Made by a program: the position numbers and the translations under genes
From: Candidatus Woesearchaeota archaeon
GTDB lineage: Archaea > Nanobdellota > Nanobdellia > SCGC-AAA011-G17 > PNOQ01
Reading direction: 5' to 3'
NCBI GenBank assembly: GCA_964344655.1
Contig: CAYFOF010000003.1
Span: 428 to 64,427 of the forward strand
Length of the DNA: 64,000 nt
The notes under the pieces: generated by a model
Database searches by the model: none
Seen by the model: the letters and a program-made list of their open reading frames with translations, nothing else
What the model was told of the DNA's origin: nothing
Shown: piece after piece, positions 2,371-27,603 of the stretch
Layout of the letters: the number at the start of each line of letters is the position of its first letter
How positions within the stretch are numbered: position 1 is the stretch's first letter

Positions 2371-3159
2371 ATGAAAAATAAATTTGTAAATGGGGCGTTA
2401 GCTTTTTTTGCGGGGGGTATTTTTGCTATTGGAGCTGGCCTATTTGGGGCAGAGGTTGTATCAAAAATTGAAGATAGATTTAGAGATATACCTCAAGAAA
2501 ATAGATTAGAAGAAGTAATAAAGAAACCAATTTATTTTAACTTTAATTCTGGAGATGAAAAAAGACAAAATTTAGTAAGAGAATTTGGACTAGTATACAA
2601 CTTGGCAAGAAAAAATTGGGATAATTTCGATGAACAATGGGATTTAGTAAAAAATGTTCGTTTAAATGTTGATTCTGAAAGTCCAAAAAGAACGGGGAGA
2701 ACCGATAGATTTGATAGATTACATTTGACTTTATATGGAGATCAAAGAGAGGCTATAATCCTCATCCATGAACTAGCACATATTTGGGAAAGAAATAAAA
2801 CAGACCAAAGATTTTCACAAAAATGGCAGGCGCTATCTAAAGGAGAATATACTCCCGATTGGAAAAATGCATCTTTTTCAGATGTTATAAAAAATGGCTC
2901 TGTTTCTTATTATTCTATGAAAAGTATTCATGAAGATATAGCAACAATTTGTGAATTTGTTTTTGCTTTGAATAGCCCTCATATTTTTGTGGGTGGCTAT
3001 CCAAATACGCTAGTTGGTAAAGATTTTTATTATAGAGATTTTATTACTTCGAGTATTTCACACCCTAAAATTAGAGAAAAGTTGAAACTATTAAGAAATT
3101 ATGATTTTTTTTCGGAGAGAGAATATAGAATTACTCTTGATGAGATGGCGGAAGATTAA
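2371..3159 (+). CDS. Membrane-anchored HExxH zinc metallopeptidase-like protein
   Basis: HELAHIWE matches HExxH. N-terminal hydrophobic anchor MKNKFVNGALAFFAGGIFAIGAGLF. Start moved to the internal Met at 2371 because the track's 2233 start overlaps the convergent membrane-protein gene. Confidence 0.55.
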   Translation: MKNKFVNGALAFFAGGIFAIGAGLFGAEVVSKIEDRFRDIPQENRLEEVIKKPIYFNFNSGDEKRQNLVREFGLVYNLARKNWDNFDEQWDLVKNVRLNVDSESPKRTGRTDRFDRLHLTLYGDQREAIILIHELAHIWERNKTDQRFSQKWQALSKGEYTPDWKNASFSDVIKNGSVSYYSMKSIHEDIATICEFVFALNSPHIFVGGYPNTLVGKDFYYRDFITSSISHPKIREKLKLLRNYDFFSEREYRITLDEMAED

Positions 3160-3204
3160 TGGATGGAAATTATTCGGATCATATGCAAGGAATGATTGAG
3201 TACG

Positions 3205-6200: not shown

Positions 6201-6279
6201 AAACATAACAACCAGATATGAATAATAGTGAGGATAACAGAAATATTACTGCCGATATTTGAAACTTATGTTGGATCAC
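3205..6279 (-). CDS. Large (1024 aa) secreted/lipobox surface protein with a C-terminal right-handed parallel beta-helix (PbH1/NosD-like) repeat region and a T/P/K-rich stalk
   Basis: N-terminal signal with lipobox-like LFISGC. Repeated N/D/G-x-I/V turns (DNTIINE, FDNNKIVG, NFNEISNN, TFSNNKI) typical of beta-helix repeats. C-terminal low-complexity TPSTKTGESITKTEEPVTKKVP. Overlaps the upstream subtilisin gene by 14 nt, so likely an operon. Confidence 0.7.
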   Translation of the reverse strand: MIQHKFQISAVIFLLSSLLFISGCYVSPYYNMAEEEYIEYYILKDVSDSTSTNLDFSQGELTHFNAKTNLLGAVSEDSIYTFLHLIDPFTGSITAVGSMGVLPYDRTSHLFSKTYNPDGTIEYFRPFNDDFTFLDVESRIWGYDEDDNFDNIYKEQYFEGPLDLGQTYNANFFSQILYFTEPYLNNTLGGEYALTLKSVLYPTEVNYVIIQDLKDRSMYPVLKEYINGVQVSTDEFDEYHHEKYRNPGEEIGELFTLTSGDTYSFNLHMPSYDDVRNYTIEGETTISSSKDYEFPHIEFIESESYYNSNQDKILKFRIIENNLGSQAQLSLNTYYKTDGSWIEIQPTINYPEVEVNLGQISSESISFRVDISLGESSIYYTIEPIAIKQREISDLDFAISSEDCIIDPVSPISTKCVLDLSGTCTDNLGANCGKLPFYFYVDGAKIIPIRFTHQEIDKDFFTSGDHELKVVYEGIPESAYPAGFESNTITLNFDEPGILITGNYEDYPIDTDGDGLYDYLAIDSDVQVTEPGYYHLTSQIYLGERDEITHSSHSEPSSGIYLIPGTHTLTSLHPGSNIYRAGLDGPYELVSMCAREETSRIHCGNFPFVTSSYKYSDFQHENIVAEFTGDYDYLIEDLNDDGKYELLKWNAEVEIYEEGEYSLSGHLRTPGGDIIYSFFNDGKQTLKPGTHTLKETFRGKEIYNSLGTGQYELVSIELKRTDGAYSYETVANDFPNVFTEHISHTDFDQTYCSEYNSEIEEITTDTWVCPKKYYLDNGVKILADNIKFNCHDAEINGIQNGAGIDLTQRSGVTIYGCTIKEYIVGINMYLSNDNIIKDNTIINELIGIGTKHSHDNIFDNNKIVGKDNPLVGLSIYNANNNEFNFNEISNNQRGVDISHLATGNTFSNNKICLNEMDMKCSVPESTFGSANRATINDGCTQVQTIACKDEETLPEIRDFPETLEDPEGIENPTIPIRDEETTPSTKTGESITKTEEPVTKKVPKLSSEKSIWQRIVDYLFSESI

Positions 6280-9965: not shown

Positions 9966-11174
9966 ATGTATAAAAAAGAGGAATTAAAACACCTTTGGAA
10001 ATTTTACGTTATTAATTTTACTGAGCATCTATTTGGTTTGGGAGTACTTATTTGGATAGTATATTTTGTAAGTAAAGGTTTTTCGTTTACAGAAGTGAGT
10101 TTAGCCTTAGCAATTTTTTCTGGGACATTATTTTTATTGGAAGTTCCCACTGGGGCGATTGCAGATATTTTTGGTAGGAAAAGAAGTGTATTTTTATCAT
10201 TCTTTTTAGTTGCATTATCCTCTTTACTAGTGCCATTTGTATCTGGATTTCTACAATTATGCGCTTTATGTTTTCTTTGGGGAGGAGCATTAACATTAGC
10301 ATCGGGAGCAGATGAGGCATTAGTAATAGATTATTTGCACAGAAAAAAAAGGAAGGACTTAATTGATGATTACTATGCAAAATCTGCTAGTATAAACCAG
10401 GTGGGTTTATTTTTTTCTGGTCTGTTATTAACGGGGCTTTTATTTATTTTAAATGATTCAATTAATTTTTCGGCCTATGATAAGATTTGGTTCATACAGG
10501 CAGGAGGTATGTTTCTTGTTGGATTAATAGCATTAACTATTGATGAAAAAATAAAAAAACCCAAGAAGCAAAATATTACATTTTTAAATACTTTGCATTT
10601 TTCAAAATCTGGATTTTCTTATGTAAAAAATCACAAAAAACTTTTGAAGATATTTATAGGATTCTCCTTTTTTAGTTTTGCTGGGTCTCTTTGGTATTTT
10701 GCATATCAACCATTTTTATTGAATTCTGGATTTGAAATGAAAGATTTTGGATGGATAGAAAGTTTAACAAGTATTTTTGGGGTATTTCTTCCTCTCTTTG
10801 CTATTAAGTTAGGAAAAAAATTCAAAGATAAGTATAAATTAATCTACTTTATATCCTTATTTAAGTTTATATTTATGTTTACAGTTTTATTATTTTTTGG
10901 CCCATTATTTGCACTAACATTTTATCTTATAATGGGAGGATTTGGTTTTTTTATATTTCCTATCTTAAATCCTATCATTCAAAAAAATATTCCATCTGAA
11001 AAGAGGGCTACAATTGGATCTATAAGGAATATGTTTTTTTCAATTGGAGAAATAGTGCCCCTATTATTTGCGGGGTTATTAGTAGATTTAATAGGTACAA
11101 AATTCACAATAATTGTTTCTGCATTGTTTATTATTCCTTTGATCTGGATATTTTATAGTTTAAGAAAAAGTTAA
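9966..11174 (+). CDS. Major facilitator superfamily transporter
   Basis: About 12 predicted TM helices, MFS-like loop motif GAIADIFGRKR between TM2 and TM3, 402 aa. Confidence 0.7.
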   Translation: MYKKEELKHLWKFYVINFTEHLFGLGVLIWIVYFVSKGFSFTEVSLALAIFSGTLFLLEVPTGAIADIFGRKRSVFLSFFLVALSSLLVPFVSGFLQLCALCFLWGGALTLASGADEALVIDYLHRKKRKDLIDDYYAKSASINQVGLFFSGLLLTGLLFILNDSINFSAYDKIWFIQAGGMFLVGLIALTIDEKIKKPKKQNITFLNTLHFSKSGFSYVKNHKKLLKIFIGFSFFSFAGSLWYFAYQPFLLNSGFEMKDFGWIESLTSIFGVFLPLFAIKLGKKFKDKYKLIYFISLFKFIFMFTVLLFFGPLFALTFYLIMGGFGFFIFPILNPIIQKNIPSEKRATIGSIRNMFFSIGEIVPLLFAGLLVDLIGTKFTIIVSALFIIPLIWIFYSLRKS

Positions 11175-12028
11175 TCCTTGGCAAATAGTTCTAGTGATTT
11201 TTTAACTGCGTTTAGCCTTGCTTGGAATATGTTATCACTATCTTTATAATTATGATCTAAAATGTGGTAAACAAAGGCTTCTGCAAATTGTTCATCGGCT
11301 TTTGCTATAGCATATTCTGCATCTATATCAAATCCTGGAGGGATTGAACTATAGAGGGATAAGTATGATGGATGGCCGGGAATTTTTTCTCCGTTATATG
11401 CTGCTGCATTATCTAGAAATTGAAATTGTAGCGTTAAATCTATTTGATTTTCTAACCCAATCATATCAAAATAAACATGTCCCATATTGTGGAGTACTTG
11501 TGCAACCATTGGTTTATCATATGGGACTGAAAATCTTTCATCTATTGGTTTAGGTAATGCACCAAAAAGAACAGGGATTGAGTTATTAAATGGGAAGTCC
11601 TTTTGATGTTCTTCAAAATTTTTCATAACAATTAGATAATGACCATAAGGATTCCAGTAGGGAACATTTACTTCAAAGAGATTTTCTGTGTTTGATCTTG
11701 GAACTCCGGGCATAGATTCACAAAATAGACTATCTGCTTCTGCAGATAGTTTGTCTATGTGTTTTTTTTCTATGAAAAATATGTCAGGTAAAAAATATTT
11801 TTCTTGAACGTTTATTTGGGCTACTGCTATAGCAGAAACTCCAAAAACAGAGAAACCATCTGTTGATAAATTTAGTTTTTGAGCTAGTGATTGTCCTTCT
11901 CTTAAATCTTCTTGTGTAATGTCTACTGTTTTTCTTGGTAAGTCTTGTTCTAACCTTCTTTCTAAACATCCGGACGAAGTTAAACTAATTGAAATTGCTG
12001 CTATTGCGGGAAGAATCAAATTTCTCAT
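11171..12028 (-). CDS. Hypothetical secreted lipoprotein (about 285 aa)
   Basis: Start trimmed to the internal Met giving MRNLILPAIAAISISLTSSGC (signal plus lipobox). The longer track ORF would overlap the LAGLIDADG gene. No recognizable catalytic motif. Confidence 0.5.
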   Translation of the reverse strand: MRNLILPAIAAISISLTSSGCLERRLEQDLPRKTVDITQEDLREGQSLAQKLNLSTDGFSVFGVSAIAVAQINVQEKYFLPDIFFIEKKHIDKLSAEADSLFCESMPGVPRSNTENLFEVNVPYWNPYGHYLIVMKNFEEHQKDFPFNNSIPVLFGALPKPIDERFSVPYDKPMVAQVLHNMGHVYFDMIGLENQIDLTLQFQFLDNAAAYNGEKIPGHPSYLSLYSSIPPGFDIDAEYAIAKADEQFAEAFVYHILDHNYKDSDNIFQARLNAVKKSLELFAKD

Positions 12029-12129
12029 AAAAAAGGAAGTTGAAGTTATGTTATAAAATGTTTGATTGTGGTTGTCAGCTTGCCAAACGTGCAGAGATTG
12101 TTTATATATTAAGTAAATAATAAAATCAT

Positions 12130-12840
12130 ATGGATAAAATAAGTGAAGAATTGGCGGAACTGATCGGGATACATATTGGTGATGGATGTTTGAGTAATAA
12201 TGGAAGATATAAGGAGGTCGCATTGGCGGGAGACCTTTTAGAAGAAAAGTCATATTATGATGATTACGTAGTTCCTCTTTTTAATAAAATAATCGCAAAA
12301 AATATTTTAAATAAAGAAGTAAAGGCCAAGGCATACCCATCAACAGGAGTTTATGGATTTTTTATTTTTAATGGAGCTCTTTTTGATCATTATGAATCAT
12401 TGGGGATCACAGTGGGATCGAAAATACGAACTAAAATCCCAGAAATCTTTTTGTCAAAAAAATTAATTAAGCATGTCATAAGAGGAATTTTTGATACAGA
12501 CGGAAATTTGTATTTTGACAAAAATAGAACTGCTAAAAATCCTATTAATAAAGTTCCAATAATTAAGTTATCTAGTACATCTAATATTCTTATAGAACAA
12601 GTTTTTAATGAATTAGTTAAATTAGGATATCACCCAAGAAAGAAAAAACCGTATAAGGGAAAAAGAGATAAAAATCAAAACCATATACTTCTCATTTATA
12701 GAAAAAAAGATGTAAAAAGATATATAGAAGAAGACATAGGATTCAATAATTTAAAACATCAAGTAAAGTGGGACTTTTTCAAAAAATATGGATACTATGT
12801 CCCTCGCATGACTACAAAAGACAGACAAAAACTTTTATAA
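12130..12840 (+). CDS. Free-standing double-motif LAGLIDADG homing-endonuclease-like protein
   Basis: Two LAGLIDADG-type motifs, LIGIHIGDGCL (N-terminal) and IRGIFDTDGNLYF (mid-protein). 236 aa and a basic C-terminus are typical of single-chain monomeric LAGLIDADG enzymes. Confidence 0.75.
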   Translation: MDKISEELAELIGIHIGDGCLSNNGRYKEVALAGDLLEEKSYYDDYVVPLFNKIIAKNILNKEVKAKAYPSTGVYGFFIFNGALFDHYESLGITVGSKIRTKIPEIFLSKKLIKHVIRGIFDTDGNLYFDKNRTAKNPINKVPIIKLSSTSNILIEQVFNELVKLGYHPRKKKPYKGKRDKNQNHILLIYRKKDVKRYIEEDIGFNNLKHQVKWDFFKKYGYYVPRMTTKDRQKLL

Positions 12841-12866: not shown

Positions 12867-12952
12867 GCGGGTGTGCCAGAGTTCGGTCAAATGGGGTGGA
12901 CTTAAGATCCATCGGCTTAGTGCCTGCGCAGGTTCAAATCCTGTCACCCGCA
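12867..12952 (+). tRNA. tRNA-Leu (anticodon UAA), class II with long variable arm
   Basis: Acceptor GCGGGTG/CACCCGC plus discriminator A, anticodon stem GTGGA/TCCAT with loop CTTAAGA (anticodon TAA), long variable arm, and T-arm GCAGG-TTCAAAT-CCTGT. Length 86 nt. Confidence 0.85.
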
Positions 12953-16538: not shown

Positions 16539-19500
16539 TTATCTAAAAACTTCCATAAAAGTAGTTCCGCCAATTACAGCATGTGCTTGACTATTTGGAT
16601 GTAATCCGTCTCCATCGTATTCTGATTTTAAGTAACCATTTCCATCATCTAGTGGAGTGAATACATCTACTGCAAAATCAACATTATTATTTGTTAATAT
16701 CCAATTATTTATATCTTTAATTATTTTAACTGAATCACTTACGTCTTCACAGTTTTTACGCTCTTCGTACCATCTTCCTGCAGGAGTTAAGGTTAGAGCA
16801 ATTACTGTTTTTCCTTGAGCTTTTAGGTAAGAATATATTGTTTCTAATTTGTTTGCGTATGTTTCGTAATTTCCTTCACAAGGTATGTCATTTATTCCAG
16901 CAAATACTAAAACAGTGTCATAATTATTTAGGTTAAAGCTATCTACGGTTCCTCCCGCGCAATCTCTTGTTTGTTCTGATCCAAGAAGTCTTAATCTTAT
17001 ATTATCTATGCCACAACTAGAATATCCTCTATAATCTAAATTTATATTGTAGCTTTCTAAATTTGCTTTTAGGTGATTTGCATAACCTCCGTTGGCAGTT
17101 ATAGAATCTCCTATGGCCAAAACGTTTGTTATTTGTTTTGTGTTTTTGAAATTAGTAGTTGAAGTTCCGCAGGAAATAAATCCATAATATCTATCATTTA
17201 GTTTGTCTATGTTGTCGGTTGTTTTTGCAACAGTACATCCATAATTTGTATTTGTCGGATGGCAATTTGTATTCCAGCGATTTCCTCCTATTCTTTCAAT
17301 TTCTTCTACATTATTATTTGCATCTACAGAAACTCCTGTTACGACATCACAATGTCCTGATCTATCTGGGGTTAGTGTGTTATATGTGGTTGATCCAGAT
17401 TCAACTCTGCACAAAATGTCTCCAGGTTTTATATTGTTTATATTTGATATGTCATTTGTTTTACAACTATATTCATTTGGATTGTCTCTTAATTCTGTGA
17501 AATACACTGAATGTTTTCCACTTACTGGGAAATCTGAAACTCCGGCATTTTTCATAACGTAAGAAATAAATGCTCCAGACCATGGAGTATCTTCGCAATC
17601 CCAATTTGTTGTTGATGTTGTACTGAAATAAGATTGTAATTTATTTTGCATGTCGCATTCTTTTCTAGCTCCCTCTCCCCATGCAGAATATTCTGCTTTG
17701 GCAACGTCGACAATATCATTTTTACTTTCTAATTGTGTTGTGATAATATTTCTTGATGCAAAGCCGAATTTAGATTTTAAAACATTATATTTTTCCATTA
17801 CTCCTTCAACGTAATTTGGATGGTGCCCGCAAGTATATCCAGCGTATCCTCTTACTGCGGCCTCCCAACCATTGTAGGTTGTTGTGGGACCATCACATGT
17901 TTTTTGGAAACTCATTCCATTCTCTCTTTCACCCCAATAACGATAAGCATTACTTAAAACATAGACTCCACATTGAACATTTGCTTTGGTATTTGTTTTT
18001 AATCCGTCAACAGAGCTAGCCCCAGATACTCTTCCATCGGAACAAGCATCGTCAAATCCTGTTCCTGTAATTTGCATTAAACCTCTGGCTCCAGTGTTGG
18101 ATGTTGCACTTTGATCACACCCACTTTCGTGCATCATAATTGCTAAAACTAATAGAGGATCAATATCTTTTTCTTCTGAGTATTGATCTATGTATTGAGC
18201 GTATAACTGGCAATTGTTTCCACAATCGCATCTTCTGTCACCAATTACATTTTCTTTCGCATATTGTATTGCTCCGTAAACATCTCCTGTTCCAGTGACT
18301 GTTGTGGTTCCTCTAGAATCACATTTTGTGGCTTGAGTTTGTATCCATGAGATTATTTTATTGAAATCATTTAGTTCTGTTGTTTTTTCAAATTTTATTC
18401 CGTTTTCACATTTCATTTCAAGTTCATTTATGTTTGTATTGCTATCTACGTATGCCCTTAGAACAGTTTCAAATCCTTCCCACCAATAATATTTTTTACT
18501 TATTCCACCTTTTTTTTCTACGTAAAACCCATTCCAGTGAATTGTTTTATCGTTATCAAATATTAATAAATCGTTTCCTGCTCGTTTTATATCTAGTTCA
18601 AATGGTTGCATCCCGTTTTCTACTCTTTCATAAATTGCATAATATAACCATTCAGCTAATCTGGAAGGAGAAATACCATTTACTACGTTTTGACCATTAA
18701 ATGTATCATATTTATTTTTATCTCCTGTTTTATGTTCAATTATTACTTTATTCCAGTTGTTCATATTTTCCCTAATTACTTGGGCTATCCCATAGGATGC
18801 AGGGGAAAGAGAAATTTCTTCAAAATCTGGGGAGAATACTACTTCTTCATAATCTTCCCATTCTTGATTTGGTCTTTTTAGAGATAATTCTCCGTCATTT
18901 ACCCTAAATTGTGTGTTTGATGAAGTTGGTTCAACTTTTATTTCAATTTCTTTATCTGTTAATTCCGAATATGCTAATTGATCTCTTATTTCTGAAGTTG
19001 CTCTACTATCTTCTTGTCCGCAAAACTCTAATATGTCTAGTATATTTGCCCCACCAGATTCAAATTTGGATTTTCTATTATCTCCTTTGTGTACGGTAAT
19101 ATGATCATCATCCTTTCCTGGAGGGTTGTTTACAGTTTCTACTATTTCTTTTACTCCGCCAGAAAAATCTTTTCCAACTAAACCTTCACAAACGTCAGAA
19201 AGAATTGTTGCGTATTTTGAATTTTTTATTAAATTACAATCTTCATTTTGATATATTTTTATCCATTCTTCATTGTTTGTTGGACCTTCTAATTTGTATT
19301 CCCACGTTCCAAATAAATATCTGAATGAGGCTCTATCGCTATTACTATTTGAATCATCAGCGTCGTAAAATATAGAACATTGAGCAGATTGTTCATCAAG
19401 TTTTCTTTGGGCTTCTTGTTGGGTTTCTTCTATTTTTTTGTATCCTGCCAGGGTTATTAGATGTTCTGCTGCTAATGAATGTGATTTTTCTATCACTTCA

Positions 19501-22500
19501 AAATCTCTTGCTCTGTCAATTAAATCATATAATTTTCCTATAAATTCTATTTTTGTTTGACGATCTCTTGGATCTATTCCTAGTGATTCGAATGCAAGGG
19601 ATTGGTATTCTTCTTCTGAATTATCATCTAATGTTTGTTGTATTTCGTTTCTTCTTTCTTGTTCTTGTGCTGGAGTATATTCATTATTTCTTTGAGCTTC
19701 TGCGATTACTTCTGATAAATTATATGAAGTATCATGTAATGATTGTTTTATTCCAGCAGAATAAAGATAGCAATTTCCTAGCTCTCTTCCTAAATCATCT
19801 TGTCCACAAGTTCCTACAAATTCCCATTCATCTCCCACACCATCGGGGTCGTATGCTGCACAAACTCTTTTTACTCCAGAAGTAAATAATCCAGGAACAT
19901 AACTTCTTTCTCTTGGAACACATTGTTCTGCAGTTTGGATATTATCGTTTAATGTTGATTTTATTAATTCATCTTTTAGATATTGAGTTGAGAATCCACT
20001 TGATGTACTTCCGAATCCACATTCTTGAATACCATCTATGATTATACACATTTCTACAAATCCTGGAGGTAAATTTGGAAGTGTGAAACTTTGATCTACA
20101 CTTTCTCCTCTTCTTAGGATTCTATCTCCTTGGAATAATCCAGGATCGTTAACTGTGATTGTTTGTCCGTTTATGTCTTTCAAAACTACTTTATACCTTA
20201 TGTCTTTATTTCTTCCAGCGTATATGTGATAGTAAATTCTGTATGTTGATTGCCCGGTTCCTATTGTAGCTTGAGTGTTTATGAAACCAGATTGTAAATT
20301 TACTTCTGAAGATCTATCTTCTTCAAACCATCCTGTGAATTGCGGTGGACTCTCTGGTGATGTTAATTGACCCAGTAGATCTCCTCCTGCGGGGGTTCTT
20401 CCGAATATTGCTTGTTTACAAAGTGTGCTTCCTACTTCGCTGGAGGTTCTTCCTCTGAATGCTGAGAATGCTGAAGATGCATAACTCTTTGTGAAAAAGT
20501 TTACAGAATCTCCAAGTCTACTCCAACTAGATTCCCATAATTTATATTCTCCTCCGCCGGATGAACCAAATACTGCTGTTGAGATGAAACTTTGTATCTT
20601 TCCAAAGACATTTACTAATGCTAAAGCTTCTTCCCATAAAATATTACACATGTATAAACTTCTTATTTCATTACAGATTCCTACAGATTCCCCACTTGTT
20701 TTGGCTACTTCTAGACAATCTCTGAAACTACCAAACATAGAATAGATGTTTTCTAATCCTGCATGTATTCCAGTTAAACAAATTGGAAGAATATCTCCAT
20801 TGCCCCATCCTAGTGTGATTGAACCAATGATTCCTTTTTGTACTACAGATCCTGCATCTCCCCCAAGATCCCATCTCCCTCCAAGATTAAATCTTGATGG
20901 CGGACACATTACAGGATCACAAACATTGTATAAAATTTTACAATCTGTAGAAGACATTGAATCTTCACATTGTCCATTTGGATCTAATCTTGATCCTATA
21001 TTTCCTTCGTATTGTTCAATTAATATGTCTTGACCGTTGAATTTTACTATTGATCCCTTGTCTTTTGTAGCTAGTGGAACTGCTTGTTGATATGTTCTTT
21101 CTATTTCATAAGCTAACCTATCATTTTCTTTTAATCTTGTATCTGGATGTAATTGTGTTGAGGACATTACTAGTTTATCATCTTCTGTGTCTGGAATTCC
21201 GTCTGAGCCAATATTCCATACTGAAAATCTATATCCTCCTCTTCTTTCTGCATTTTCATCTACTTGTATGTAGTTTGCAAAACTTAGTGATTCTTCTCCA
21301 CCATTATATTGGAATGGGATTAATGTTGGAGTGTTAGTTTCATCGTCGAAGTAAATTCTTGGAACTGTTGTATATTGAGTTAAGAAAGATCCTTCTGAAA
21401 GTCCGGCAAGGTAAATGTTTCCGTTTGCTTCATAAAAGTCTCCTCTGGTACTTGAAAGGATTTCACTTCCATCCATTATTGGGGTTACAGTTATTTTATT
21501 TCCTTCCGTATCTATTATGTATTTGTTATCTCCATCTGTGTAAAGCGGGAATGGGTTATTGTTTGGTCTGGAGATTATATCTCTTCCTTGAAGTGTTTGT
21601 TGTGCACGAGTGTCTTGATCTGTGAAGAATGCATTTGAAGGAGTTGTTAAAGAACCAGTTCCAACACTTAATCTGTATCTTAATTCAATTTCTTTTATTT
21701 CTTTATCAGAAAGTTCTTGATCTCCTATTTCTTCTCTTATTGATCGATCAATTTTATTTACTTTTTGTAGTTGTTCGTCAAAGTCTAAACTGCCGTCTTG
21801 CCAAACTTCTTCATCATACATTGATTCGTATAATTCTTGACCTGAAAGATCTCCGTATTTGTGTAATAATGTTAAGTTTGTTACATCCATGTTTAATCTT
21901 GTAGCTATTCCTTGTAAAGATTCTTCATCTTCAAAATCTACATCTTTGAATAATTCATCTAATTCGTTTTTTGTTCTTTGAGAAATTTCTACTCTTTCTT
22001 CTATTTCATTTTTAGCATCGTTGAAACAATTTATTGAGGCTTGAGTGTTAGTCCCGTGTACACTTTCACAGTCTTCTCTTACTCTATTTTCAATTAATCT
22101 TTTTGCAGGATTTGAAAAGAAAGCATTTTTTATTGTTAGTGCAGCAAATGTTGCATAACAAACTCCTTTCCAGGTTGAAATTATACTTCCTAGTCTATTT
22201 ATTATTCCGTCTAGTCTAGAAAGTGTTCTATCTGTTGAGGCAATCATCTTATCAATTTCTTCAGGAGTCCATTGCCATAATCTTTTTTCTATTGGCAAGT
22301 GAATTGTAAATTGAGAAGTTCCATAATTATCTCTTGTTCCTGGAGTTACAGTTATTATTGCACTTTCAACTACATCTATTTTATCTATGTAAATGAATCT
22401 AGATTGAGTACCGAAAGGAACTTGAGTTTTTTTGCCTATTTCTAATGTTCTTGTATTTGCTTCTGGTCTGTTTCTTGAATTTAATTCTGTGAATTCTTGT

Positions 22501-24017
22501 TGGATCACAACTTCATTTGAGCTTATTGAAGTTATTGCCCATCTATATTTATTTCCTGACTCGTCAATTATCTCTGGAGAAATGTATTCTCCGATTGTTC
22601 CTTCATCAAAATCGAAATTTATTATGCTATCATCAAAACTGTTTAATACAGCATAATTTACTTTACTTTGTTCTGCATCATCATCAATTGATATTAAAGT
22701 TATTAACATATCATCTGCTTTGACATAATTGTATTTGTTTTGTAATCTTAATTGAGAATTATCTAATCTTTCTTGATATTTTTCTTGCAATGAAGGATCT
22801 GCTTGTATTGCATTTAGTAAGAAAAGATTTGCTTTTTCTATTGAATTAAGACCTTCGTAAGCCTCAGAAATTTTTACATAGTATTCTGCTTCTTCTGTTG
22901 AAGTTTCTGCTAGTTGTAATGCAGATCTGTAATCTTCAATTGCTTGACAGTATAACTGAGTTGAAGAAGCAGCGCTTAATTGTTCACTTGGTAGATATCT
23001 GAAATTTGCACACGGATCTGAAATTTCACTTCCCTCTTCATATGCTATGAATAATTCATTTCCATCTGTGTCAACTATTATTAATCCGTCAGAAAATATT
23101 TCTTTTACAACCCATTCACTGTTTAATTTCATTCCAGCAACATAATCTTTTGTTGATGAAACAATTTCTTCTCCTAAATCTTCTTCAATTAGTAACCTTG
23201 CTTTGTTTTCGTTTTTACTTACTCTTTCTAGTTTTAGATTAATTCTACTTTCCAGTAAACTTGGAGCCCCTGGGAGTGTAACTTCTTTTGGTTCTCCTCC
23301 AGCTGTTAATTTAACTTGATTAGCAAATCCTATTTTTCTTTTATTTCCGTCGTATAATTGTACTCTTGCGGTGTTTCCATTTATTTCTATAACTCTTATG
23401 TACCCTCTTCCGCCCCATAAAGCACTATCTTTTAGTTCTTTGTTTAGCCATGCTTCTTCATCCTTTTGAGGAGCGAGATTGAAACTTTGTGTACTTAAAA
23501 CTCCAAATCCAGATTCAACATCAAAATAAATTCTTGCATCAACTTCAATTGTTATTTCTTCAGGAACTTTTTCTTCTAGTGGTTGACGTTTTAGTCTTAC
23601 AGTTGTGTATCCTAGATCTATGTTTCCATTTGCATCAACTACTAATTCTTCTCCTTTTGGTCTTACTAGAGAAGTTAATCCTCCTTGAATGTATTTACTT
23701 GATTCTCGGTTTGGGATTAAATCTATATGTTTAATTTTCATATCTCCGTAAAATGGAGCCCCCGCAGGAGATTGAGAATCACCGAATAATGCAGTGCCTA
23801 AAGTTTTACCAGAAAGAAATACGTGAACATTTGCTGCTCTGTGTTGGAATAAATCAGAAGTTATTGGAGTTGGGCTTACGTGATCTACGTTTATTGTAAG
23901 TGCTTCTCCTAAGTCTCTTGTGTCTCCTTCTATTGGATCGTTGTAATATCCAAAGGAAGTTACTGGAGTACTAACTATTAAAATTATACAAATTATTGCG
24001 TATATTGCTTTATTCAT
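16539..24017 (-). CDS. Giant secreted protein (2492 aa): about 1900 aa N-terminal region of unknown function followed by lytic transglycosylase (SLT), CHAP-like Cys/His peptidase and SGNH/GDSL hydrolase domains
   Basis: Signal peptide MNKAIYAIICIILIVSTPVTSFG. SLT motif AIMMHESGCDQ...GARGLMQIT (coding around 17.9-18.25 kb). CHAP-like Cys region WSGAFISYVMKNAGV and His region SGHCDVVTGV (around 17.3-17.6 kb). SGNH block I AIGDSITANGG and block V DGLHPN (16.54-17.14 kb). The start codon overlaps the stop of the upstream gene (ATGA). Confidence 0.85.
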   Translation of the reverse strand: MNKAIYAIICIILIVSTPVTSFGYYNDPIEGDTRDLGEALTINVDHVSPTPITSDLFQHRAANVHVFLSGKTLGTALFGDSQSPAGAPFYGDMKIKHIDLIPNRESSKYIQGGLTSLVRPKGEELVVDANGNIDLGYTTVRLKRQPLEEKVPEEITIEVDARIYFDVESGFGVLSTQSFNLAPQKDEEAWLNKELKDSALWGGRGYIRVIEINGNTARVQLYDGNKRKIGFANQVKLTAGGEPKEVTLPGAPSLLESRINLKLERVSKNENKARLLIEEDLGEEIVSSTKDYVAGMKLNSEWVVKEIFSDGLIIVDTDGNELFIAYEEGSEISDPCANFRYLPSEQLSAASSTQLYCQAIEDYRSALQLAETSTEEAEYYVKISEAYEGLNSIEKANLFLLNAIQADPSLQEKYQERLDNSQLRLQNKYNYVKADDMLITLISIDDDAEQSKVNYAVLNSFDDSIINFDFDEGTIGEYISPEIIDESGNKYRWAITSISSNEVVIQQEFTELNSRNRPEANTRTLEIGKKTQVPFGTQSRFIYIDKIDVVESAIITVTPGTRDNYGTSQFTIHLPIEKRLWQWTPEEIDKMIASTDRTLSRLDGIINRLGSIISTWKGVCYATFAALTIKNAFFSNPAKRLIENRVREDCESVHGTNTQASINCFNDAKNEIEERVEISQRTKNELDELFKDVDFEDEESLQGIATRLNMDVTNLTLLHKYGDLSGQELYESMYDEEVWQDGSLDFDEQLQKVNKIDRSIREEIGDQELSDKEIKEIELRYRLSVGTGSLTTPSNAFFTDQDTRAQQTLQGRDIISRPNNNPFPLYTDGDNKYIIDTEGNKITVTPIMDGSEILSSTRGDFYEANGNIYLAGLSEGSFLTQYTTVPRIYFDDETNTPTLIPFQYNGGEESLSFANYIQVDENAERRGGYRFSVWNIGSDGIPDTEDDKLVMSSTQLHPDTRLKENDRLAYEIERTYQQAVPLATKDKGSIVKFNGQDILIEQYEGNIGSRLDPNGQCEDSMSSTDCKILYNVCDPVMCPPSRFNLGGRWDLGGDAGSVVQKGIIGSITLGWGNGDILPICLTGIHAGLENIYSMFGSFRDCLEVAKTSGESVGICNEIRSLYMCNILWEEALALVNVFGKIQSFISTAVFGSSGGGEYKLWESSWSRLGDSVNFFTKSYASSAFSAFRGRTSSEVGSTLCKQAIFGRTPAGGDLLGQLTSPESPPQFTGWFEEDRSSEVNLQSGFINTQATIGTGQSTYRIYYHIYAGRNKDIRYKVVLKDINGQTITVNDPGLFQGDRILRRGESVDQSFTLPNLPPGFVEMCIIIDGIQECGFGSTSSGFSTQYLKDELIKSTLNDNIQTAEQCVPRERSYVPGLFTSGVKRVCAAYDPDGVGDEWEFVGTCGQDDLGRELGNCYLYSAGIKQSLHDTSYNLSEVIAEAQRNNEYTPAQEQERRNEIQQTLDDNSEEEYQSLAFESLGIDPRDRQTKIEFIGKLYDLIDRARDFEVIEKSHSLAAEHLITLAGYKKIEETQQEAQRKLDEQSAQCSIFYDADDSNSNSDRASFRYLFGTWEYKLEGPTNNEEWIKIYQNEDCNLIKNSKYATILSDVCEGLVGKDFSGGVKEIVETVNNPPGKDDDHITVHKGDNRKSKFESGGANILDILEFCGQEDSRATSEIRDQLAYSELTDKEIEIKVEPTSSNTQFRVNDGELSLKRPNQEWEDYEEVVFSPDFEEISLSPASYGIAQVIRENMNNWNKVIIEHKTGDKNKYDTFNGQNVVNGISPSRLAEWLYYAIYERVENGMQPFELDIKRAGNDLLIFDNDKTIHWNGFYVEKKGGISKKYYWWEGFETVLRAYVDSNTNINELEMKCENGIKFEKTTELNDFNKIISWIQTQATKCDSRGTTTVTGTGDVYGAIQYAKENVIGDRRCDCGNNCQLYAQYIDQYSEEKDIDPLLVLAIMMHESGCDQSATSNTGARGLMQITGTGFDDACSDGRVSGASSVDGLKTNTKANVQCGVYVLSNAYRYWGERENGMSFQKTCDGPTTTYNGWEAAVRGYAGYTCGHHPNYVEGVMEKYNVLKSKFGFASRNIITTQLESKNDIVDVAKAEYSAWGEGARKECDMQNKLQSYFSTTSTTNWDCEDTPWSGAFISYVMKNAGVSDFPVSGKHSVYFTELRDNPNEYSCKTNDISNINNIKPGDILCRVESGSTTYNTLTPDRSGHCDVVTGVSVDANNNVEEIERIGGNRWNTNCHPTNTNYGCTVAKTTDNIDKLNDRYYGFISCGTSTTNFKNTKQITNVLAIGDSITANGGYANHLKANLESYNINLDYRGYSSCGIDNIRLRLLGSEQTRDCAGGTVDSFNLNNYDTVLVFAGINDIPCEGNYETYANKLETIYSYLKAQGKTVIALTLTPAGRWYEERKNCEDVSDSVKIIKDINNWILTNNNVDFAVDVFTPLDDGNGYLKSEYDGDGLHPNSQAHAVIGGTTFMEVFR

Positions 24018-25987
24018 TGTACTTCTGGGTATATGAAATTTTGATTATTTGCATTTGCATTCATGTTATTGAAAACATCTAACATTTCTGATTGTGTTCT
24101 TGGAGTTTTATCATATGGGACGTAAACTGTTAGTTTATTTCTATTGAAAACATCAGCATACCATTCGTATGCAGCTCCGCCGACAATAACATCCGTTAGT
24201 GTTCCTCCATCAAATTCGGATTCAAAACATTTTTCTTCACTTGAGAATAATCCAAGTATTCCTGGACGTGGAACTTTTACACAACTTATTTCTGAATCGG
24301 ATTTAAGTTCTATGTTTGTATTTTCTTCAGTTAGTAAGTATGAAGTTACTTGGTAGTTTCCGTCGGTTAATTTTATTTCAGTGTCTTCATTTGTTACCAT
24401 AGTTATGTATCCATTATCTAGGTTTTCAAATTGTACTACCGCTTGTTTGTCATTTACGGAACTAGTGAATCCATCTCCAAGTTGAACTTCTTTTATTTCT
24501 AATTCTAGAGTGTAGTGTTTGTCTAGTAGAACTGTAGTTTCTTGATCTATGTTTGTTGAAATAAATTCTCCGCCAAGCTCATAGCCATCTTTTTGTGCAA
24601 TTATTGCACCGTTTAAACATGGAGGGAAGTTTGCATTTATTTTTCCTTGTTCATTTGTTTCTCCAATATAACAAGTAGATGTGAAACATTTGTATAGTAT
24701 ACTTGTATCTTCAATATCTCTGAATGTTTTGCTGTCATAAACTGTTACTTCCATTGGTTTTACTTTGTTTTCACAGAAATTATCTGTAAATTCATTTGAA
24801 TATTCTGTGTTGAATACTTCTCCCTCATATGCTCTTGGATTGTTGTTATCTATGATTACTGTTGTTGCGTATTGGAAAGTTAATCCAGTATTGTCGTCGG
24901 TTAATCCAATTAATACTGGGTATTTTACGTCGTAAACAAAATGGTAATTGTTTAAACAGAAAAATAAGTTTAGGAATTTACTTATCTCTGGAGTTTGTTG
25001 TGTTAGAGCATCTCCTACTAAAATTTCTCCTTTTGTTGGTGAGACATCCATAAACATTGGGAAGTCGGTTGAATAGGTGAATGATTCAGTTATATATTCG
25101 GGTTTTGTTATGTCTATTTCAAAATAATCTCTATTTGTTGGAAGATATGCAGATGAAGTTGGGTCTTTTAAGGTTAGGGCAGCTATGTTTGTGTTTGTTA
25201 TTGATTTAAGATCTTCTAGAACTCTTGATTTTTGCCAAACTTTTCTTTCACATGAAAACTCTGTTGTTGAATATGGAATTTCTTCGTATGTTGCCATTAG
25301 ATCAATTGTTTTTTCTTCTAGGAATAATTCTTCATTTTCTTTTTCCATAACTTCTTTTGCAAGATTGTATAGTTCTCCTAATTTTGAATCTGCTATTACC
25401 ATTAGTTTATCTATATCAGTATAAACTTCTTTTAGTGAAATTTGTAAATCAGAATTTAATTTTACTTGAACATTGTTTTGGTTTATTTTTACTTCTGAAG
25501 ATAATATTTCTGGATAGTTTATTGTGAATCCATCTTCTTCAAAACTTTGAGCAAAATATTCGCAGTTGTTGAAATTATTGTTTATGTATTCTTCAAGTTC
25601 TCTTTCCATTTCTTCTATAGTTGGAATTTGTTGTTGTTGGATTCCATTTGAGGTTTCATAAAACCAATATGCAACTTCATGGATTGAGTAAAGATTTAAT
25701 GTATTTGAGAATTCATCATTTATTGTTCTTTTGTAAGGTTCTTCTGGAAGGTTTATGTATCCTCCTTGAGAAGCTAAAATGTTTATTCCATCTTGAGTTA
25801 TTCCTTCTAAACATACATCAAAATAGTCTTTTGCGGGTCTTATTTGTTCTGGAATTATTATAGAATTCATCTCTGATTCAAAATCTTGTTCTAATATTTG
25901 AGATCTGAAGGAAAATAGTATTGTAAATACTGCTAAAATGACAATTCCTAGAATTATAAATACAGTAACTTGACCCCTCTTTTTCAT
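24014..25987 (-). CDS. Hypothetical 657-aa protein with an archaeal class III (type IV prepilin-like) signal peptide
   Basis: N-terminal MKKRGQVTVFIILGIVILAVFTILF: basic residues, Gly, then a 20-residue hydrophobic helix is typical of archaeal prepilin/archaellin signal peptides processed after the KRG. The rest is rich in T/N/E/Y with no motif recognized. The stop overlaps the start of the giant gene. Confidence 0.65.
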   Translation of the reverse strand: MKKRGQVTVFIILGIVILAVFTILFSFRSQILEQDFESEMNSIIIPEQIRPAKDYFDVCLEGITQDGINILASQGGYINLPEEPYKRTINDEFSNTLNLYSIHEVAYWFYETSNGIQQQQIPTIEEMERELEEYINNNFNNCEYFAQSFEEDGFTINYPEILSSEVKINQNNVQVKLNSDLQISLKEVYTDIDKLMVIADSKLGELYNLAKEVMEKENEELFLEEKTIDLMATYEEIPYSTTEFSCERKVWQKSRVLEDLKSITNTNIAALTLKDPTSSAYLPTNRDYFEIDITKPEYITESFTYSTDFPMFMDVSPTKGEILVGDALTQQTPEISKFLNLFFCLNNYHFVYDVKYPVLIGLTDDNTGLTFQYATTVIIDNNNPRAYEGEVFNTEYSNEFTDNFCENKVKPMEVTVYDSKTFRDIEDTSILYKCFTSTCYIGETNEQGKINANFPPCLNGAIIAQKDGYELGGEFISTNIDQETTVLLDKHYTLELEIKEVQLGDGFTSSVNDKQAVVQFENLDNGYITMVTNEDTEIKLTDGNYQVTSYLLTEENTNIELKSDSEISCVKVPRPGILGLFSSEEKCFESEFDGGTLTDVIVGGAAYEWYADVFNRNKLTVYVPYDKTPRTQSEMLDVFNNMNANANNQNFIYPEVQ

Positions 25988-26049
25988 GTTAAGAAATTAC
26001 GCATTTAGCTTTATAAAGTTTGTGATGAAAAATAGACGATAAAATTAGA

Positions 26050-27603
26050 TTATTTTCTCCATCTTCCTTTAATGATTGGAAGTGCTTGAACTAATCCTCC
26101 TTCATATAGTACCCCATTGCCCGCCATTGAAGTTGAAGGTTGTCCTAATTGATAATCTAAAGGTATTAATGAACTTGTTCCAACAGACATTGATCCTTTG
26201 CTTACTTCTAGTTGATGAACGTGCCCCATAATGACTTTTCCATAGGCTTCTATTAAACTTTTTAGTGAGCCTCTTCCGCCATTTTTTCCTTTGTGACCAT
26301 GGGCACCACATTGATATCCCCAATACATTGCGTCTTCACCAAGTCTTAGGAATCTTAGATTATTTGGGATTTTATTTTCAAAAAGTTTTCTTATTGCTAC
26401 TTCAAGTGCATTATCTTTAACAGAATTAAAAGATTCAGCCCCCAATATTCTGTGTGCCATTTTTCTATTTTGTGGATCACTTCTATAAGCTCCTTTTGCT
26501 AACCAACGATATAACATATCGTCATGATTGGAGTAGTTAACGATTACTTCACCTTTTCCTGCTCTTTTTGCTTTCTCTATTAGATATTCTCCAGTTTCAT
26601 AAAGCTCTTCTTCAAGACTTCTAACTCTTCTTTCATGTTTGTCTGTTTGTGCAACTTCGTCATCTAGTTCATGAAGATTTATTGATTGAGCACTGAATGC
26701 GTCGTGAATGTGTATGTGTTCTGGAGCAAAATAATCTATCATTTCGTTGTTTGCTTCATCTGTTTCTGGATCTAATTCAGAAACGTGGGAATCTCCAAGA
26801 ACTAAAGCAACTGTTTTTGCTTTGTGGGGTTTTACTCCTTTTGCGTACTTTATTCCTAAATCTATAAATGTTCCATTTGCTTGAGCAGGAACTATTCTTG
26901 GAAGGTATAATTTTTCATCTAAAACATCAACAACTACAAATCCAAATTCATGCTCTTCATCAGCATCATATCCCCTTCTATTTGTAGTGTTATAACTTGG
27001 ATGAGTGCAACATCCTGTCGTTAACATTAATTTTGGGTATTCTCCAGATTGTCCTTTTGCTACAGGAGTTAATACTTGTTTTGGGCTTGGCATAACAATT
27101 GAACTTCCGCCGTGTTTTTTTGTATATTTTCCTTTCCCAGTTAAAGGATTTTGATTTTGAGAGGGTTCTGGAACCGCTATTAGTCGTACATTTGTATTTA
27201 ATCTTTCTCCCGTTGTTTCATAATTAGTATTTGGCATTTCATTCCAAAAAAAATGCATTGGCATTTTTGGAGATCTTCCTTTTTCTCTCCAATTATCTCT
27301 CTTTTCTTGTTCTCTTTCTTTTTGCATTTCTAATCTGCCTTTTGCATTACTTTCCATATATACATCATCTCTTTTGTGGAAAAATGGATGTAATTCAATT
27401 TCATTAACGTAAGATCCGGGAATTGCACAAATTCTTAATTCCCCTTCGTTATCTCGAACATATCTTTCTAAATTTTTTATAAGTGGTAAATTTGGAGCAC
27501 CTTTAGAAGAATCTCTTCCATAGTGTTCAGCAGAATGAGGATTTTGAATGCCTTGCGCAGCAGTTATAGCAATAGTTTTAGTTTTAGAATTATCACCCTC
27601 CAT
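26050..27603 (-). CDS. Two-domain protein: N-terminal region of unknown function plus C-terminal calcineurin-like metallophosphoesterase domain
   Basis: Phosphoesterase motifs LGDSHV (GDxH), HIHDAF, YSNHDD (GNHD/E-like) and GHVHQ (GHxH) in residues about 260-470. 517 aa. Confidence 0.7.
   Translation of the reverse strand: MEGDNSKTKTIAITAAQGIQNPHSAEHYGRDSSKGAPNLPLIKNLERYVRDNEGELRICAIPGSYVNEIELHPFFHKRDDVYMESNAKGRLEMQKEREQEKRDNWREKGRSPKMPMHFFWNEMPNTNYETTGERLNTNVRLIAVPEPSQNQNPLTGKGKYTKKHGGSSIVMPSPKQVLTPVAKGQSGEYPKLMLTTGCCTHPSYNTTNRRGYDADEEHEFGFVVVDVLDEKLYLPRIVPAQANGTFIDLGIKYAKGVKPHKAKTVALVLGDSHVSELDPETDEANNEMIDYFAPEHIHIHDAFSAQSINLHELDDEVAQTDKHERRVRSLEEELYETGEYLIEKAKRAGKGEVIVNYSNHDDMLYRWLAKGAYRSDPQNRKMAHRILGAESFNSVKDNALEVAIRKLFENKIPNNLRFLRLGEDAMYWGYQCGAHGHKGKNGGRGSLKSLIEAYGKVIMGHVHQLEVSKGSMSVGTSSLIPLDYQLGQPSTSMAGNGVLYEGGLVQALPIIKGRWRK

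What the first reader, a model, noticed from the sequence alone, without database searches (positions are those of the whole stretch)
24014..25987. Prepilin-type (class III signal peptide) protein translationally coupled to the giant hydrolase gene
The 657-aa protein starts MKKRGQ followed by a 20-residue hydrophobic helix. This is the archaeal class III signal architecture processed by prepilin peptidase in archaellins and archaeal type IV pilins. Its TGA overlaps the ATG of the giant gene (ATGA at 24014-24017), implying co-translation. A pilus-like or surface-filament subunit welded to a murein-degrading giant protein suggests a contact-dependent delivery or penetration device.
Basis: partly seen in the sequence, partly recalled or inferred. 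Interest (0 to 1): 0.75.

Follow-up and report, generated by a model that had tools for sequence, protein, structure and literature searches.

The report
Prepilin-signal partner of giant DPANN hydrolase
A 657-residue surface protein of a tiny DPANN archaeon carries a strongly conserved prepilin-type (class III) export signal, and across its lineage its gene always overlaps the gene of a giant secreted protein whose variable tail often carries enzymes that cut bacterial cell walls; the two probably form a cell-surface complex for attaching to or attacking bacteria, but nothing shows that it is a pilus.

Summary
ORF 24014-25987(-) encodes 657 aa starting MKKRG|QVTVFIILGIVILAVFTILFSF, and its TGA overlaps the ATG of the 2492-aa gene (ATGA). 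The window is archaeal (S8e, TFB, Kae1; 31% GC) and its relatives are Woesearchaeota/Pacearchaeota.

The N-terminus passes the FlaFind-type class III rule. Across more than 130 homologues at 30-85% identity, position -2 is K/R, -1 is only G or A, +1 is always Q, +3 is T/S, and 22 hydrophobic residues follow. Leader length varies from 3 to 25 aa, and is about 65 aa where a winged-helix domain is fused in front. This pattern points to a processing site, though cleavage was not tested.

In 77 of 77 evaluable genomes the giant gene follows directly, usually with the same ATGA overlap. Only the giant's first ~1420 aa are conserved. The tails vary from 57 to 1606 aa and recurrently carry SLT, M15, SH3, GDSL and similar domains.

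The models show a novel disulfide-rich alpha/beta region followed by three CnaB/transthyretin-like beta-sandwiches. No convincing pilin fold appears, and no pilus genes lie nearby.

Best reading: a class III-processed membrane stalk or partner that holds the giant protein at the surface. A true pilus, an uncleaved anchor and an S-layer pair remain as rivals. The giant family is published; the partner gene and its signal appear not to be.

The parts
24014..25987 (-). 657-aa ORF of a large, uncharacterised DPANN family with a class III-type signal
   Evidence: One search found 228 homologues, all about 650 aa with no Pfam match. One search found 9045 representative clusters at E<=1e-3, 6478 at E<=1e-10 and 1620 at E<=1e-30.
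25973..25987 (-). Leader MKKRG. The predicted class III peptidase site lies between G5 and Q6.
   Evidence: FlaFind-type pattern. Family-wide: -2 is K/R in 129/130, -1 is G in 123 and A in 7, +1 is Q in 130/130. Leader length varies while the site stays fixed. Cleavage itself is an inference.
25907..25972 (-). Hydrophobic helix Q6-F27, with T at +3 and G at +9 conserved, followed by R/K at +23
   Evidence: single hydrophobic peak; position table; helix 4-42 in the AF2 models.
24773..25855 (-). Residues 45-405: disulfide-rich alpha/beta ectodomain with no clear structural relative. It holds the most conserved motifs: VAYWFYE, FLEEKTID, FCLNNYHFVYDIKYP and VIIDNNQPR.
24017..24766 (-). Residues 408-657: three tandem beta-sandwich (CnaB/transthyretin/CarboxypepD_reg-like) domains
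24014..24017 (-). ATGA stop/start overlap between the 657-aa gene and the giant gene
   Evidence: Conserved in 54 of 79 related junctions; nearly all the rest overlap by 8 nt or more, or are 17 nt or less apart.
26010..26017 (-). TTTATAAA, a TATA-box-like element 23-30 nt upstream of the ATG. It suggests the operon has its own promoter and a near-leaderless mRNA.
   Evidence: Read directly from the sequence. Function is inferred, not tested.
16539..24017 (-). Giant 2492-aa secreted protein with a Sec-type signal at residues 1-23. [quoted passage not shown]
   Evidence: Literature: PMC8204110 (fam00969) and PMC9723730.
19758..24017 (-). Conserved core of the giant, residues 1-1420 (blocks 1-280, 500-650, 1000-1420, the last Cys- and Gly-rich). 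This is the part that co-occurs with the 657-aa gene.
   Evidence: Coverage across 77 loci. Alignment A2 has 15 invariant Cys among its invariant columns. No Pfam hit in the core and no PDB sequence relative.
16542..19667 (-). Variable C-terminal tail, residues 1451-2492, carrying SLT (17913-18194), DUF2272 (17268-17606) and GDSL/SGNH (16578-17117)
   Evidence: The tails of homologues differ in length (57-1606 aa) and content: SLT in 5 of the 10 longest, plus Peptidase_M15_4, SH3_3, DUF1615, GDSL and Metallophos.

Best explanation
The 657-aa protein and the giant protein are the two subunits of a lineage-wide cell-surface complex of Woesearchaeota/Pacearchaeota-type DPANN archaea.

Shown:
- The two genes are always adjacent and usually overlap by ATGA. 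In about a quarter of the loci a small winged-helix gene precedes them in the same overlapping fashion.
- The giant protein has a Sec-type signal and no other membrane segment.
- The 657-aa protein has a single N-terminal hydrophobic helix preceded by an invariant [KR]-[GA]-Q site.
- Its ectodomain has 10 invariant cysteines and ends in three beta-sandwich domains.
- Only the first ~1420 aa of the giant co-vary in presence with it. The giant's tail is polymorphic and often carries peptidoglycan hydrolase and binding domains.

Inferred:
- The 657-aa protein inserts N-in and is cut between G5 and Q6 by a PibD/EppA-type class III signal peptidase, as are the Q(+1) pilins of Methanococcus.
- Its mature hydrophobic helix then serves as a membrane anchor, or as a handle for a type-IV-filament machinery as proposed for Sulfolobus sugar-binding proteins.
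- Its ectodomain binds the conserved core of the co-translated giant in 1:1 stoichiometry and holds it at the cell surface.
- The variable tail points outward, where in this organism SLT + DUF2272 + SGNH would bind and cut the murein of a bacterial host or prey.

On this reading the 657-aa protein is a stalk or docking subunit, not a filament-forming pilin.
For: Class III site: pattern match. Conservation is extreme compared with 45% mean column identity for the whole protein: Q(+1) 130/130, G/A(-1) 130/130, K/R(-2) 129/130, T/S(+3) 124/130. The site stays fixed under leaders of 3 to about 25 aa in distant members.

Fusion evidence: in one clade a winged-helix domain of about 65 aa is fused in frame directly before KK[GA]Q, in three cases with no internal Met. 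This is easiest to tolerate if the site is cleaved.

Literature: a +1 Gln and a leader ending in Gly are the hallmark of EppA-processed archaeal pilins (PMC3875500). TFF systems 1 and 4A occur in DPANN/Nanoarchaeota, and non-pilin proteins with class III signals are widespread (bioRxiv 10.64898/2026.04.22.720090). Woesearchaeota express archaellins (PMC11606122).

Complex: the giant gene lies directly downstream in 77/80 loci, and the other 3 end at a contig edge. One locus has the two genes in a single frame.

Other support: the giant has only a Sec signal. The ectodomain has 10 invariant Cys and serial beta-sandwich stalk domains, including similarity to the S-layer stalk SlaB. The tails are polymorphic and murein-directed.
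Against: No cleavage or interaction data exist; everything beyond the sequence patterns is inference. No A24 peptidase, TFF ATPase or platform gene was seen in the 64-kb window or as a recurring neighbour in the 80 related loci. The rest of this genome could not be searched. Pfam and NCBIfam class III/pilin N-terminal models do not match. Position +5 is F/Y, not the Glu of Methanococcus and bacterial pilins. A conserved juxtamembrane motif could serve another purpose. Physical contact between the two proteins rests on gene coupling only. No structure could be predicted for the giant's core, because the protein collection held only 2 homologues of it.
Confidence: 0.5

Rival explanations
1. Uncleaved signal anchor. 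The N-terminal helix is an ordinary type II membrane anchor that tethers the protein, and through it the giant. The KRGQ-T motif would be conserved for topology, lipid contact or helix-helix contact, not for cleavage.
For: Single N-terminal TM with a positive-inside flank. No peptidase or TFF genes in the window or the related loci. No HMM match to class III/pilin N-terminal families. Fused winged-helix variants resemble ToxR-type membrane-tethered regulators.
Against: An anchor does not need an invariant Gln, nor a position restricted to Gly/Ala exactly at the start of the hydrophobic stretch, across proteins only 30% identical and under leaders of very different length. That residue choice is the known specificity of prepilin peptidases (PMC3875500; Szabo 2007 criteria as used in bioRxiv 10.64898/2026.04.22.720090).
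Confidence: 0.22
2. True type IV filament subunit. The protein is a modular minor or tip pilin that a TFF machine encoded elsewhere polymerises into a fibre. The fibre would carry the giant hydrolase to a bacterial cell wall as a contact-dependent penetration device.
Confidence: 0.15
3. Two-component S-layer or envelope scaffold, analogous to Sulfolobus SlaA/SlaB. The giant would be the outer canopy protein and the 657-aa protein its membrane stalk. The hydrolase tails would be decorations.
Against: The topology is opposite to SlaB (N-terminal rather than C-terminal anchor, no coiled coil). The SlaB match is a generic beta-sandwich match. Woesearchaeota transcriptomes list separately annotated S-layer genes (PMC11606122). 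Polymorphic enzymatic tails are unusual for lattice proteins. No lattice evidence exists.
Confidence: 0.1

Closest known systems
[quoted passage not shown]
   Same: A large functional ectodomain sits behind a short basic leader, a [GA] cleavage position and a ~20-aa hydrophobic helix. The gene is not in a pilus operon. The proposed role is to display a function at the surface.
   Different: The ectodomain is unrelated to substrate-binding proteins and has a novel alpha/beta region plus three beta-sandwiches. It is obligatorily coupled to a giant secreted partner. It occurs in DPANN. Cleavage has not been shown.
EppA-processed type IV pilins of Methanococcus maripaludis (DUF361 / Pfam Class_IIIsignal; PMC3875500)
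   Same: [quoted passage not shown] The related TFF 'system 1' is reported in DPANN.
   Different: Position +5 is Phe/Tyr, not Glu. There is no Pfam match. The protein is 657 aa against 60-170 aa. There is no convincing pilin fold.
Modular type IV pilins (Streptococcus sanguinis PilB/PilC; PMC8179133) and the tip pseudopilin GspK
   Different: Those proteins are encoded in pilus operons and have a recognisable pilin module. Neither feature is shown here.
SlaB, the membrane stalk of the SlaA/SlaB S-layer (PDB 8qox)
   Different: SlaB is anchored at the C-terminus through a coiled coil and uses a Sec signal. There is no sequence similarity, and no evidence of a lattice here.
[quoted passage not shown]
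   Same: The downstream giant gene belongs to this published family: up to about 3000 aa, with an SLT domain. AR20's copy is locus L017.
   Different: The papers read here describe the giant alone. The upstream class III partner, the ATGA coupling, the conserved-core/variable-tail split and the winged-helix gene are not mentioned in them.

Membership tests
Archaeal class III (prepilin-type) signal peptide substrates (FlaFind / Szabo 2007 criteria) | Short charged leader ending in [KR]-[GA], immediately before the hydrophobic segment | tested here: met
   MKKRG|Q passes the pattern. In the family, -2 is K/R in 129/130 and -1 is G in 123 and A in 7 of 130. Distant members keep it.
Archaeal class III (prepilin-type) signal peptide substrates (FlaFind / Szabo 2007 criteria) | Uncharged hydrophobic stretch of about 20 residues right after the site, within the first 30 aa | tested here: met
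   Residues 6-27, KD peak 3.1. Positions +2 to +22 are hydrophobic family-wide.
Archaeal class III (prepilin-type) signal peptide substrates (FlaFind / Szabo 2007 criteria) | Actual cleavage by a PibD/FlaK/EppA (A24) peptidase | not testable with these tools
   This needs an assay or N-terminal proteomics. The only indirect hint is the tolerated in-frame winged-helix fusions before the site.
Archaeal class III (prepilin-type) signal peptide substrates (FlaFind / Szabo 2007 criteria) | A class III peptidase encoded in the same genome | not testable with these tools
   None among the ORFs of at least 100 aa in the 64-kb window (Pfam scans). A GxGDxK regex on the 80 loci found none. The rest of the genome is not available. 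The literature gives only lineage-level support.
Pfam Class_IIIsignal (PF04021, DUF361) / Pilin_N / NCBIfam archaeal flagellin-pilin N-terminal models | Significant HMM match at the N-terminus | tested here: not met
   Ten family N-termini at E<=10 in Pfam and five in NCBIfam gave only noise: Tad at E 0.2-0.4 and a pilin model at E 0.07.
Type IV pilin / TFF filament subunit | Pilin fold: a long alpha1 helix packed on an antiparallel beta-sheet | tested here: inconclusive
Type IV pilin / TFF filament subunit | Genomic association with a TFF ATPase, platform protein or other pilins | tested here: not met
   The neighbours in 80 loci are housekeeping genes. The Walker-A candidates near the gene are ABC transporters. 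No other class III ORFs lie nearby. This is not decisive, because archaeal pilin genes can be unlinked.
Type IV pilin / TFF filament subunit | Polymerisation into a filament | not testable with these tools
   Requires microscopy or biochemistry.
SlaB-type S-layer stalk | C-terminal TM helix, coiled-coil stalk and Sec signal | tested here: not met
Woese/Pacearchaeota large murein-like lytic transglycosylase proteins (fam00969), for the downstream giant gene | Secreted protein of more than 1500 aa with an SLT/GH23 domain, in Woese/Pacearchaeota | tested here: met
   2492 aa with a signal peptide and SLT at E 2.5e-11. Homologues occur in 77 Woese/Nano/Pacearchaeota loci, including AR20.

The most novel reading that the evidence does not exclude
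The pair (a triple where the winged-helix gene is present) could be the host-contact organelle of Woesearchaeales/Pacearchaeales. A class III peptidase would cut the 657-aa protein at G|Q, and a type-IV-filament machine would lift it, with the giant protein bound to it, out of the membrane. The lineage-specific hydrolase tail would then open the murein of a bacterial partner, making this a cross-domain attachment or feeding device. In the clade with the in-frame winged-helix fusion, the same cut would release a DNA-binding domain into the cytoplasm. Export of the surface complex would then be coupled to transcription, a use of a prepilin peptidase as a signalling protease that I do not know to have been described.
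Probability: 0.12. Interest if true: 0.9.

Novelty: new variant of a known kind. Interest (0 to 1): 0.6.

Why it matters
Woesearchaeota and Pacearchaeota are among the most abundant uncultured archaea, and how they contact their partners is an open question. Their giant 'murein transglycosylase' proteins have been the main genomic argument for association with bacteria, but until now only as isolated ORFs.

This work shows that every sampled giant has an obligate, translationally coupled partner with a prepilin-type signal. It also shows that the conserved unit is the partner plus the giant's ~1420-aa core, and that the enzymatic tail is a swappable module. A vague annotation becomes a defined two- or three-gene system with direct tests: cleavage at G|Q, binding of the core, localisation by cryo-ET, and tail specificity against candidate hosts.

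The family also extends the range of non-pilin cargo carrying class III signals to a very large DPANN family (more than 6000 representative clusters at E<=1e-10).

Tried and rejected
- Pfam and NCBIfam on the full 657-aa protein and on the 517-aa upstream ORF gave nothing.
- Profile searches of the 657 family (A1) and of the giant's core block (A2) against PDB sequences gave only noise.
- I tried to build an alignment of the giant's core for structure prediction. The protein collection returned only 2 homologues, so no model of the core could be made, and both prediction jobs went to the 657-aa protein.
- A regex hunt for A24 peptidases and secretion ATPases in 1.3 Mb of related loci found no peptidase. 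Two Walker-A candidates upstream of the gene in L038 and L042 turned out to be ABC transporters.
- A 250-aa multi-TM ORF that recurs downstream was rejected as a third component. It matches in only 5 loci, sits 1.2-3 kb away and is absent from the window.
- The 517-aa ORF upstream (26050-27603) is not part of the system: homologues exist in only 4 of 80 loci.
- There is no sequence similarity between the 657-aa protein and the giant.
- I considered and dropped a signal peptidase I site after the helix, because there is no conserved small-x-small motif (FSFRS|Q).
- I ran no further search on a prepilin peptidase. I had no reliable DPANN query, and the result would have been lineage-level only.
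Full report
**What is in the sequence.** ORF 24014-25987 on the minus strand encodes 657 aa, and its ATG is the first start after an in-frame stop. The protein begins MKKRG-QVTVFIILGIVILAVFTILFSF-RS. That is a five-residue basic leader followed by a 22-residue uncharged hydrophobic segment, the only hydrophobic peak in the protein. A TTTATAAA element lies 23-30 nt upstream of the ATG (26010-26017). I read it as an archaeal TATA box for a near-leaderless operon mRNA; this is an inference.

**The organism.** The window is archaeal: it encodes ribosomal protein S8e, TFB and Kae1, has 31% GC, and all relatives found come from Woesearchaeota/Pacearchaeota/'Nanoarchaeia' MAGs.

**The giant protein.** It has a Sec-type signal peptide and no other membrane segment. 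Its C-terminal quarter carries SLT (1942-2035), DUF2272 (2138-2250) and GDSL/SGNH (2301-2480) domains.

**Is the class III signal real?**
- The N-terminus passes the FlaFind-type rule [KRDE][GA][ALIFQMVED][ILMVTAS]x3 followed by a hydrophobic stretch. It is the only ORF of the window that does.
- In 1.3 Mb of related DNA, only 4 of about 2000 non-family ORFs pass a relaxed version, and two of those are Sec signals of the giant.
- The family is large and uncharacterised. One search gave 228 homologues, all about 650 aa with no Pfam domain. An exhaustive profile search gave 9045 representative clusters at E<=1e-3, 6478 at E<=1e-10 and 1620 at E<=1e-30.
- Mean column identity across the family alignment is 45%, yet the site is almost invariant. 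Position -2 is K/R in 129/130, -1 is G in 123 and A in 7, +1 is Q in 130/130, +3 is T/S in 124/130, +9 is G in 120/130, and R/K closes the helix at +23.
- The members my script failed to score visibly carry the same motif with leaders of 3-4 aa (same output).
- Distant ~620-aa members keep [KR][GA]Q[VIL][TS]IF.II under leaders of 5-25 aa.

A position restricted to Gly/Ala next to an invariant residue at the exact start of the hydrophobic helix, under a leader of variable length, is what a peptidase recognition site looks like. It is not what a plain anchor needs. A leader ending in Gly with Gln at +1 is the signature of the EppA-processed pilins of Methanococcus maripaludis (PMC3875500). The related TFF 'system 1' and subsystem 4A are reported in DPANN/Nanoarchaeota, and non-pilin class III substrates are reported as widespread (bioRxiv 10.64898/2026.04.22.720090). 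Woesearchaeota transcriptomes show archaellin expression (PMC11606122).

Against this reading:
- +5 is F/Y rather than Glu.
- The Pfam and NCBIfam pilin N-terminal models do not match.
- No A24 peptidase was found in the window.

Cleavage itself and the presence of the peptidase in this genome could not be tested.

**Is it a pilin?** Probably not in the filament-forming sense.
- The AF2 model of the whole protein (pLDDT 84) and of residues 1-405 (pLDDT 87.8, pTM 0.83) shows a helix at residues 4-42, a break at a conserved VPxQxxPVK loop, an alpha/beta region to about residue 405, and then three beta-sandwich domains.
- Ten cysteines are invariant, consistent with an extracellular, disulfide-stabilised protein. 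No invariant His or Ser suggests an enzyme.
- No pilin, ATPase or platform genes recur next to the gene in 80 loci. The neighbours are housekeeping genes: S15, a RecJ-like protein and S3Ae on one side, S8e, LSm and TFB on the other. Two nearby Walker-A proteins are ABC transporters.

**The coupling to the giant gene.** A scan of species-representative genomes returned 80 loci. In 77 of them a homologue of the giant starts directly after the 657-family gene, and the other three loci end at the contig edge. The junction is ATGA in 53 and GTGA in 1 of 79. Nearly all the others have 8-nt or longer overlaps (ATGAATAA type) or gaps of 17 nt or less; a few loci have broken frames. In L073 the two are in one frame, by a one-base difference. 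The pair is therefore an obligate, translationally coupled unit.

Only parts of the giant are conserved with it: residues 1-280, 500-650 and 1000-1420. The last block is Cys- and Gly-rich, with 15 invariant Cys among its invariant columns. Beyond about residue 1450 the proteins differ. Tails range from 57 to 1606 aa. The ten longest tails carry SLT (5 of 10), Peptidase_M15_4, three SH3_3 repeats, DUF1615, GDSL or a metallophosphatase. The hydrolase module is thus recurrent and aimed at murein, but swappable and dispensable. The conserved partner of the 657-aa protein is the core.

**An additional component.** In 21 of 80 loci a 60-71-aa winged-helix gene sits immediately upstream. Its sub-threshold Pfam hits are consistently winged-helix families (MarR in 13 of 21 members; best PDB profile hit a MarR regulator at E 0.003). 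In several loci its stop overlaps the 657-family start with ATGA again. In one clade that includes the published AR20 genome it is fused in frame. Three of these fusions have no internal Met before KK[GA]Q. If the class III site is cut, the fusion regenerates the same two products as the separate genes, which would explain why it is tolerated. If it is not cut, these variants look like ToxR-type membrane-tethered regulators. The window has no such gene.

**Most likely mechanism (confidence about 0.5).** The 657-aa protein inserts N-in and is processed at G5|Q6 by a PibD/EppA-type peptidase. It keeps its hydrophobic helix as a membrane anchor or as a handle for a TFF machine, as proposed for bindosome proteins. 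Its ectodomain binds the conserved core of the co-translated, Sec-exported giant, which has no anchor of its own. The giant's tail is displayed outward, where in this organism a lytic transglycosylase, a DUF2272 domain and an SGNH esterase could act on bacterial peptidoglycan. The shown parts are the signal pattern and its conservation, the coupling, the domain layout and the core/tail split. Cleavage, binding, orientation and target are inferred.

Rivals:
- An uncleaved signal anchor (0.22).
- A SlaA/SlaB-like envelope scaffold (0.10). This is suggested by the universality of the pair, its housekeeping synteny and the stalk-like sandwiches. It is weakened by the reversed topology and by S-layer genes annotated separately in Woesearchaeota.

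[quoted passage not shown] It has been used to argue for bacterial hosts or prey. Archaeal peptidoglycan hydrolases that kill bacteria have been shown experimentally in haloarchaea (PMC12352652). None of the papers I read mentions the upstream partner, its class III-type signal, the ATGA coupling, the conserved-core/variable-tail organisation or the winged-helix gene.

I therefore rate the finding as a new variant of a known kind: a class III-signal surface protein of the bindosome or modular-pilin type, in a new and very large family, with an obligate giant partner. It works most like a SlaB-type stalk or a bindosome subunit. It passes the sequence criteria for class III substrates. It does not pass the tests for type IV pilins (fold inconclusive, genomic context not met).

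**Verdict.** Interest is 0.6. The system is widespread, well defined and directly testable, and it bears on how the most abundant DPANN lineages touch their partners. Its function remains inferred.

Noticed in passing
L017 9809-10000 (AR20), L051 3524-3715, L021 9806-9997, L037 2118-2309, L022 9809-10000; separate ORFs in L047 9804-9995, L042 7638-7823, L066 9816-10001 and 13 more loci: A 60-71-aa winged-helix gene lies directly upstream of the 657-family gene in 21 of 80 loci, with ATGA-type overlap in several of them. In one clade it is fused in frame before the KK[GA]Q site, in three cases with no internal Met. This could be a released or a membrane-tethered regulator. It is absent from the window.
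   Followed up: partly
L073 1126-5139 (junction near 3150-3170): The 657-family ORF and the giant ORF are in one reading frame (GAA ATA AAA ATG instead of GAA TAA AATG). This is either a natural fusion or a one-base assembly error.
   Followed up: partly
L070 5708-6439: An extra 243-aa ORF matches the first ~220 profile positions of the 657 family (E 1.6e-27), upstream of the full-length copy. It may be a truncated paralogue.
   Followed up: no
window 19758-21050 (giant residues 990-1420): The best-conserved block of the giant is Cys- and Gly-rich (…CDPVMCP.SRFNLGG…VVQTGIIGS…PICLTG…GGGEY…PESPPQF…YYHIYAG…) and has no Pfam or PDB sequence relative. The 5.8-billion-protein collection returned only 2 homologues although 77 genomes encode it, so these giants seem to be nearly missing from that collection.
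   Followed up: partly
window 1403-1516 (-): Rfam reports a 114-nt tRNA here that ARAGORN did not report. It is probably an intron-containing archaeal tRNA, next to tRNA-Glu at 1279-1355.
   Followed up: no
window 12130-12840 (+): A LAGLIDADG_3 ORF (236 aa) lies immediately upstream of tRNA-Leu (12867-12952) and overlaps a 360-aa ORF without Pfam hits on the other strand (11171-12253). It may be a free-standing homing endonuclease.
   Followed up: no
window 26050-27603 (-): A 517-aa ORF lies 62 nt upstream of the 657-aa gene, with no Pfam or NCBIfam match and no hydrophobic segment. Homologues occur in only 4 of 80 related loci, so it is not part of the conserved module.
   Followed up: partly
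window 3205-8677 (-): Two overlapping genes encode large proteins with lipobox-like N-termini (…SGC…): a subtilase S8 protein (803 aa) and a NosD/beta-helix protein (1024 aa). This looks like another surface-protein pair in the same window.
   Followed up: no
window 207-1232, 45558-46010, 62740-63108: Genes typically considered bacterial occur in this archaeal window: a FabH-like ACP synthase III, an NrdR repressor next to a class II ribonucleotide reductase, and Fur. This is in line with published reports of bacterial gene content in Woesearchaeota.
   Followed up: no
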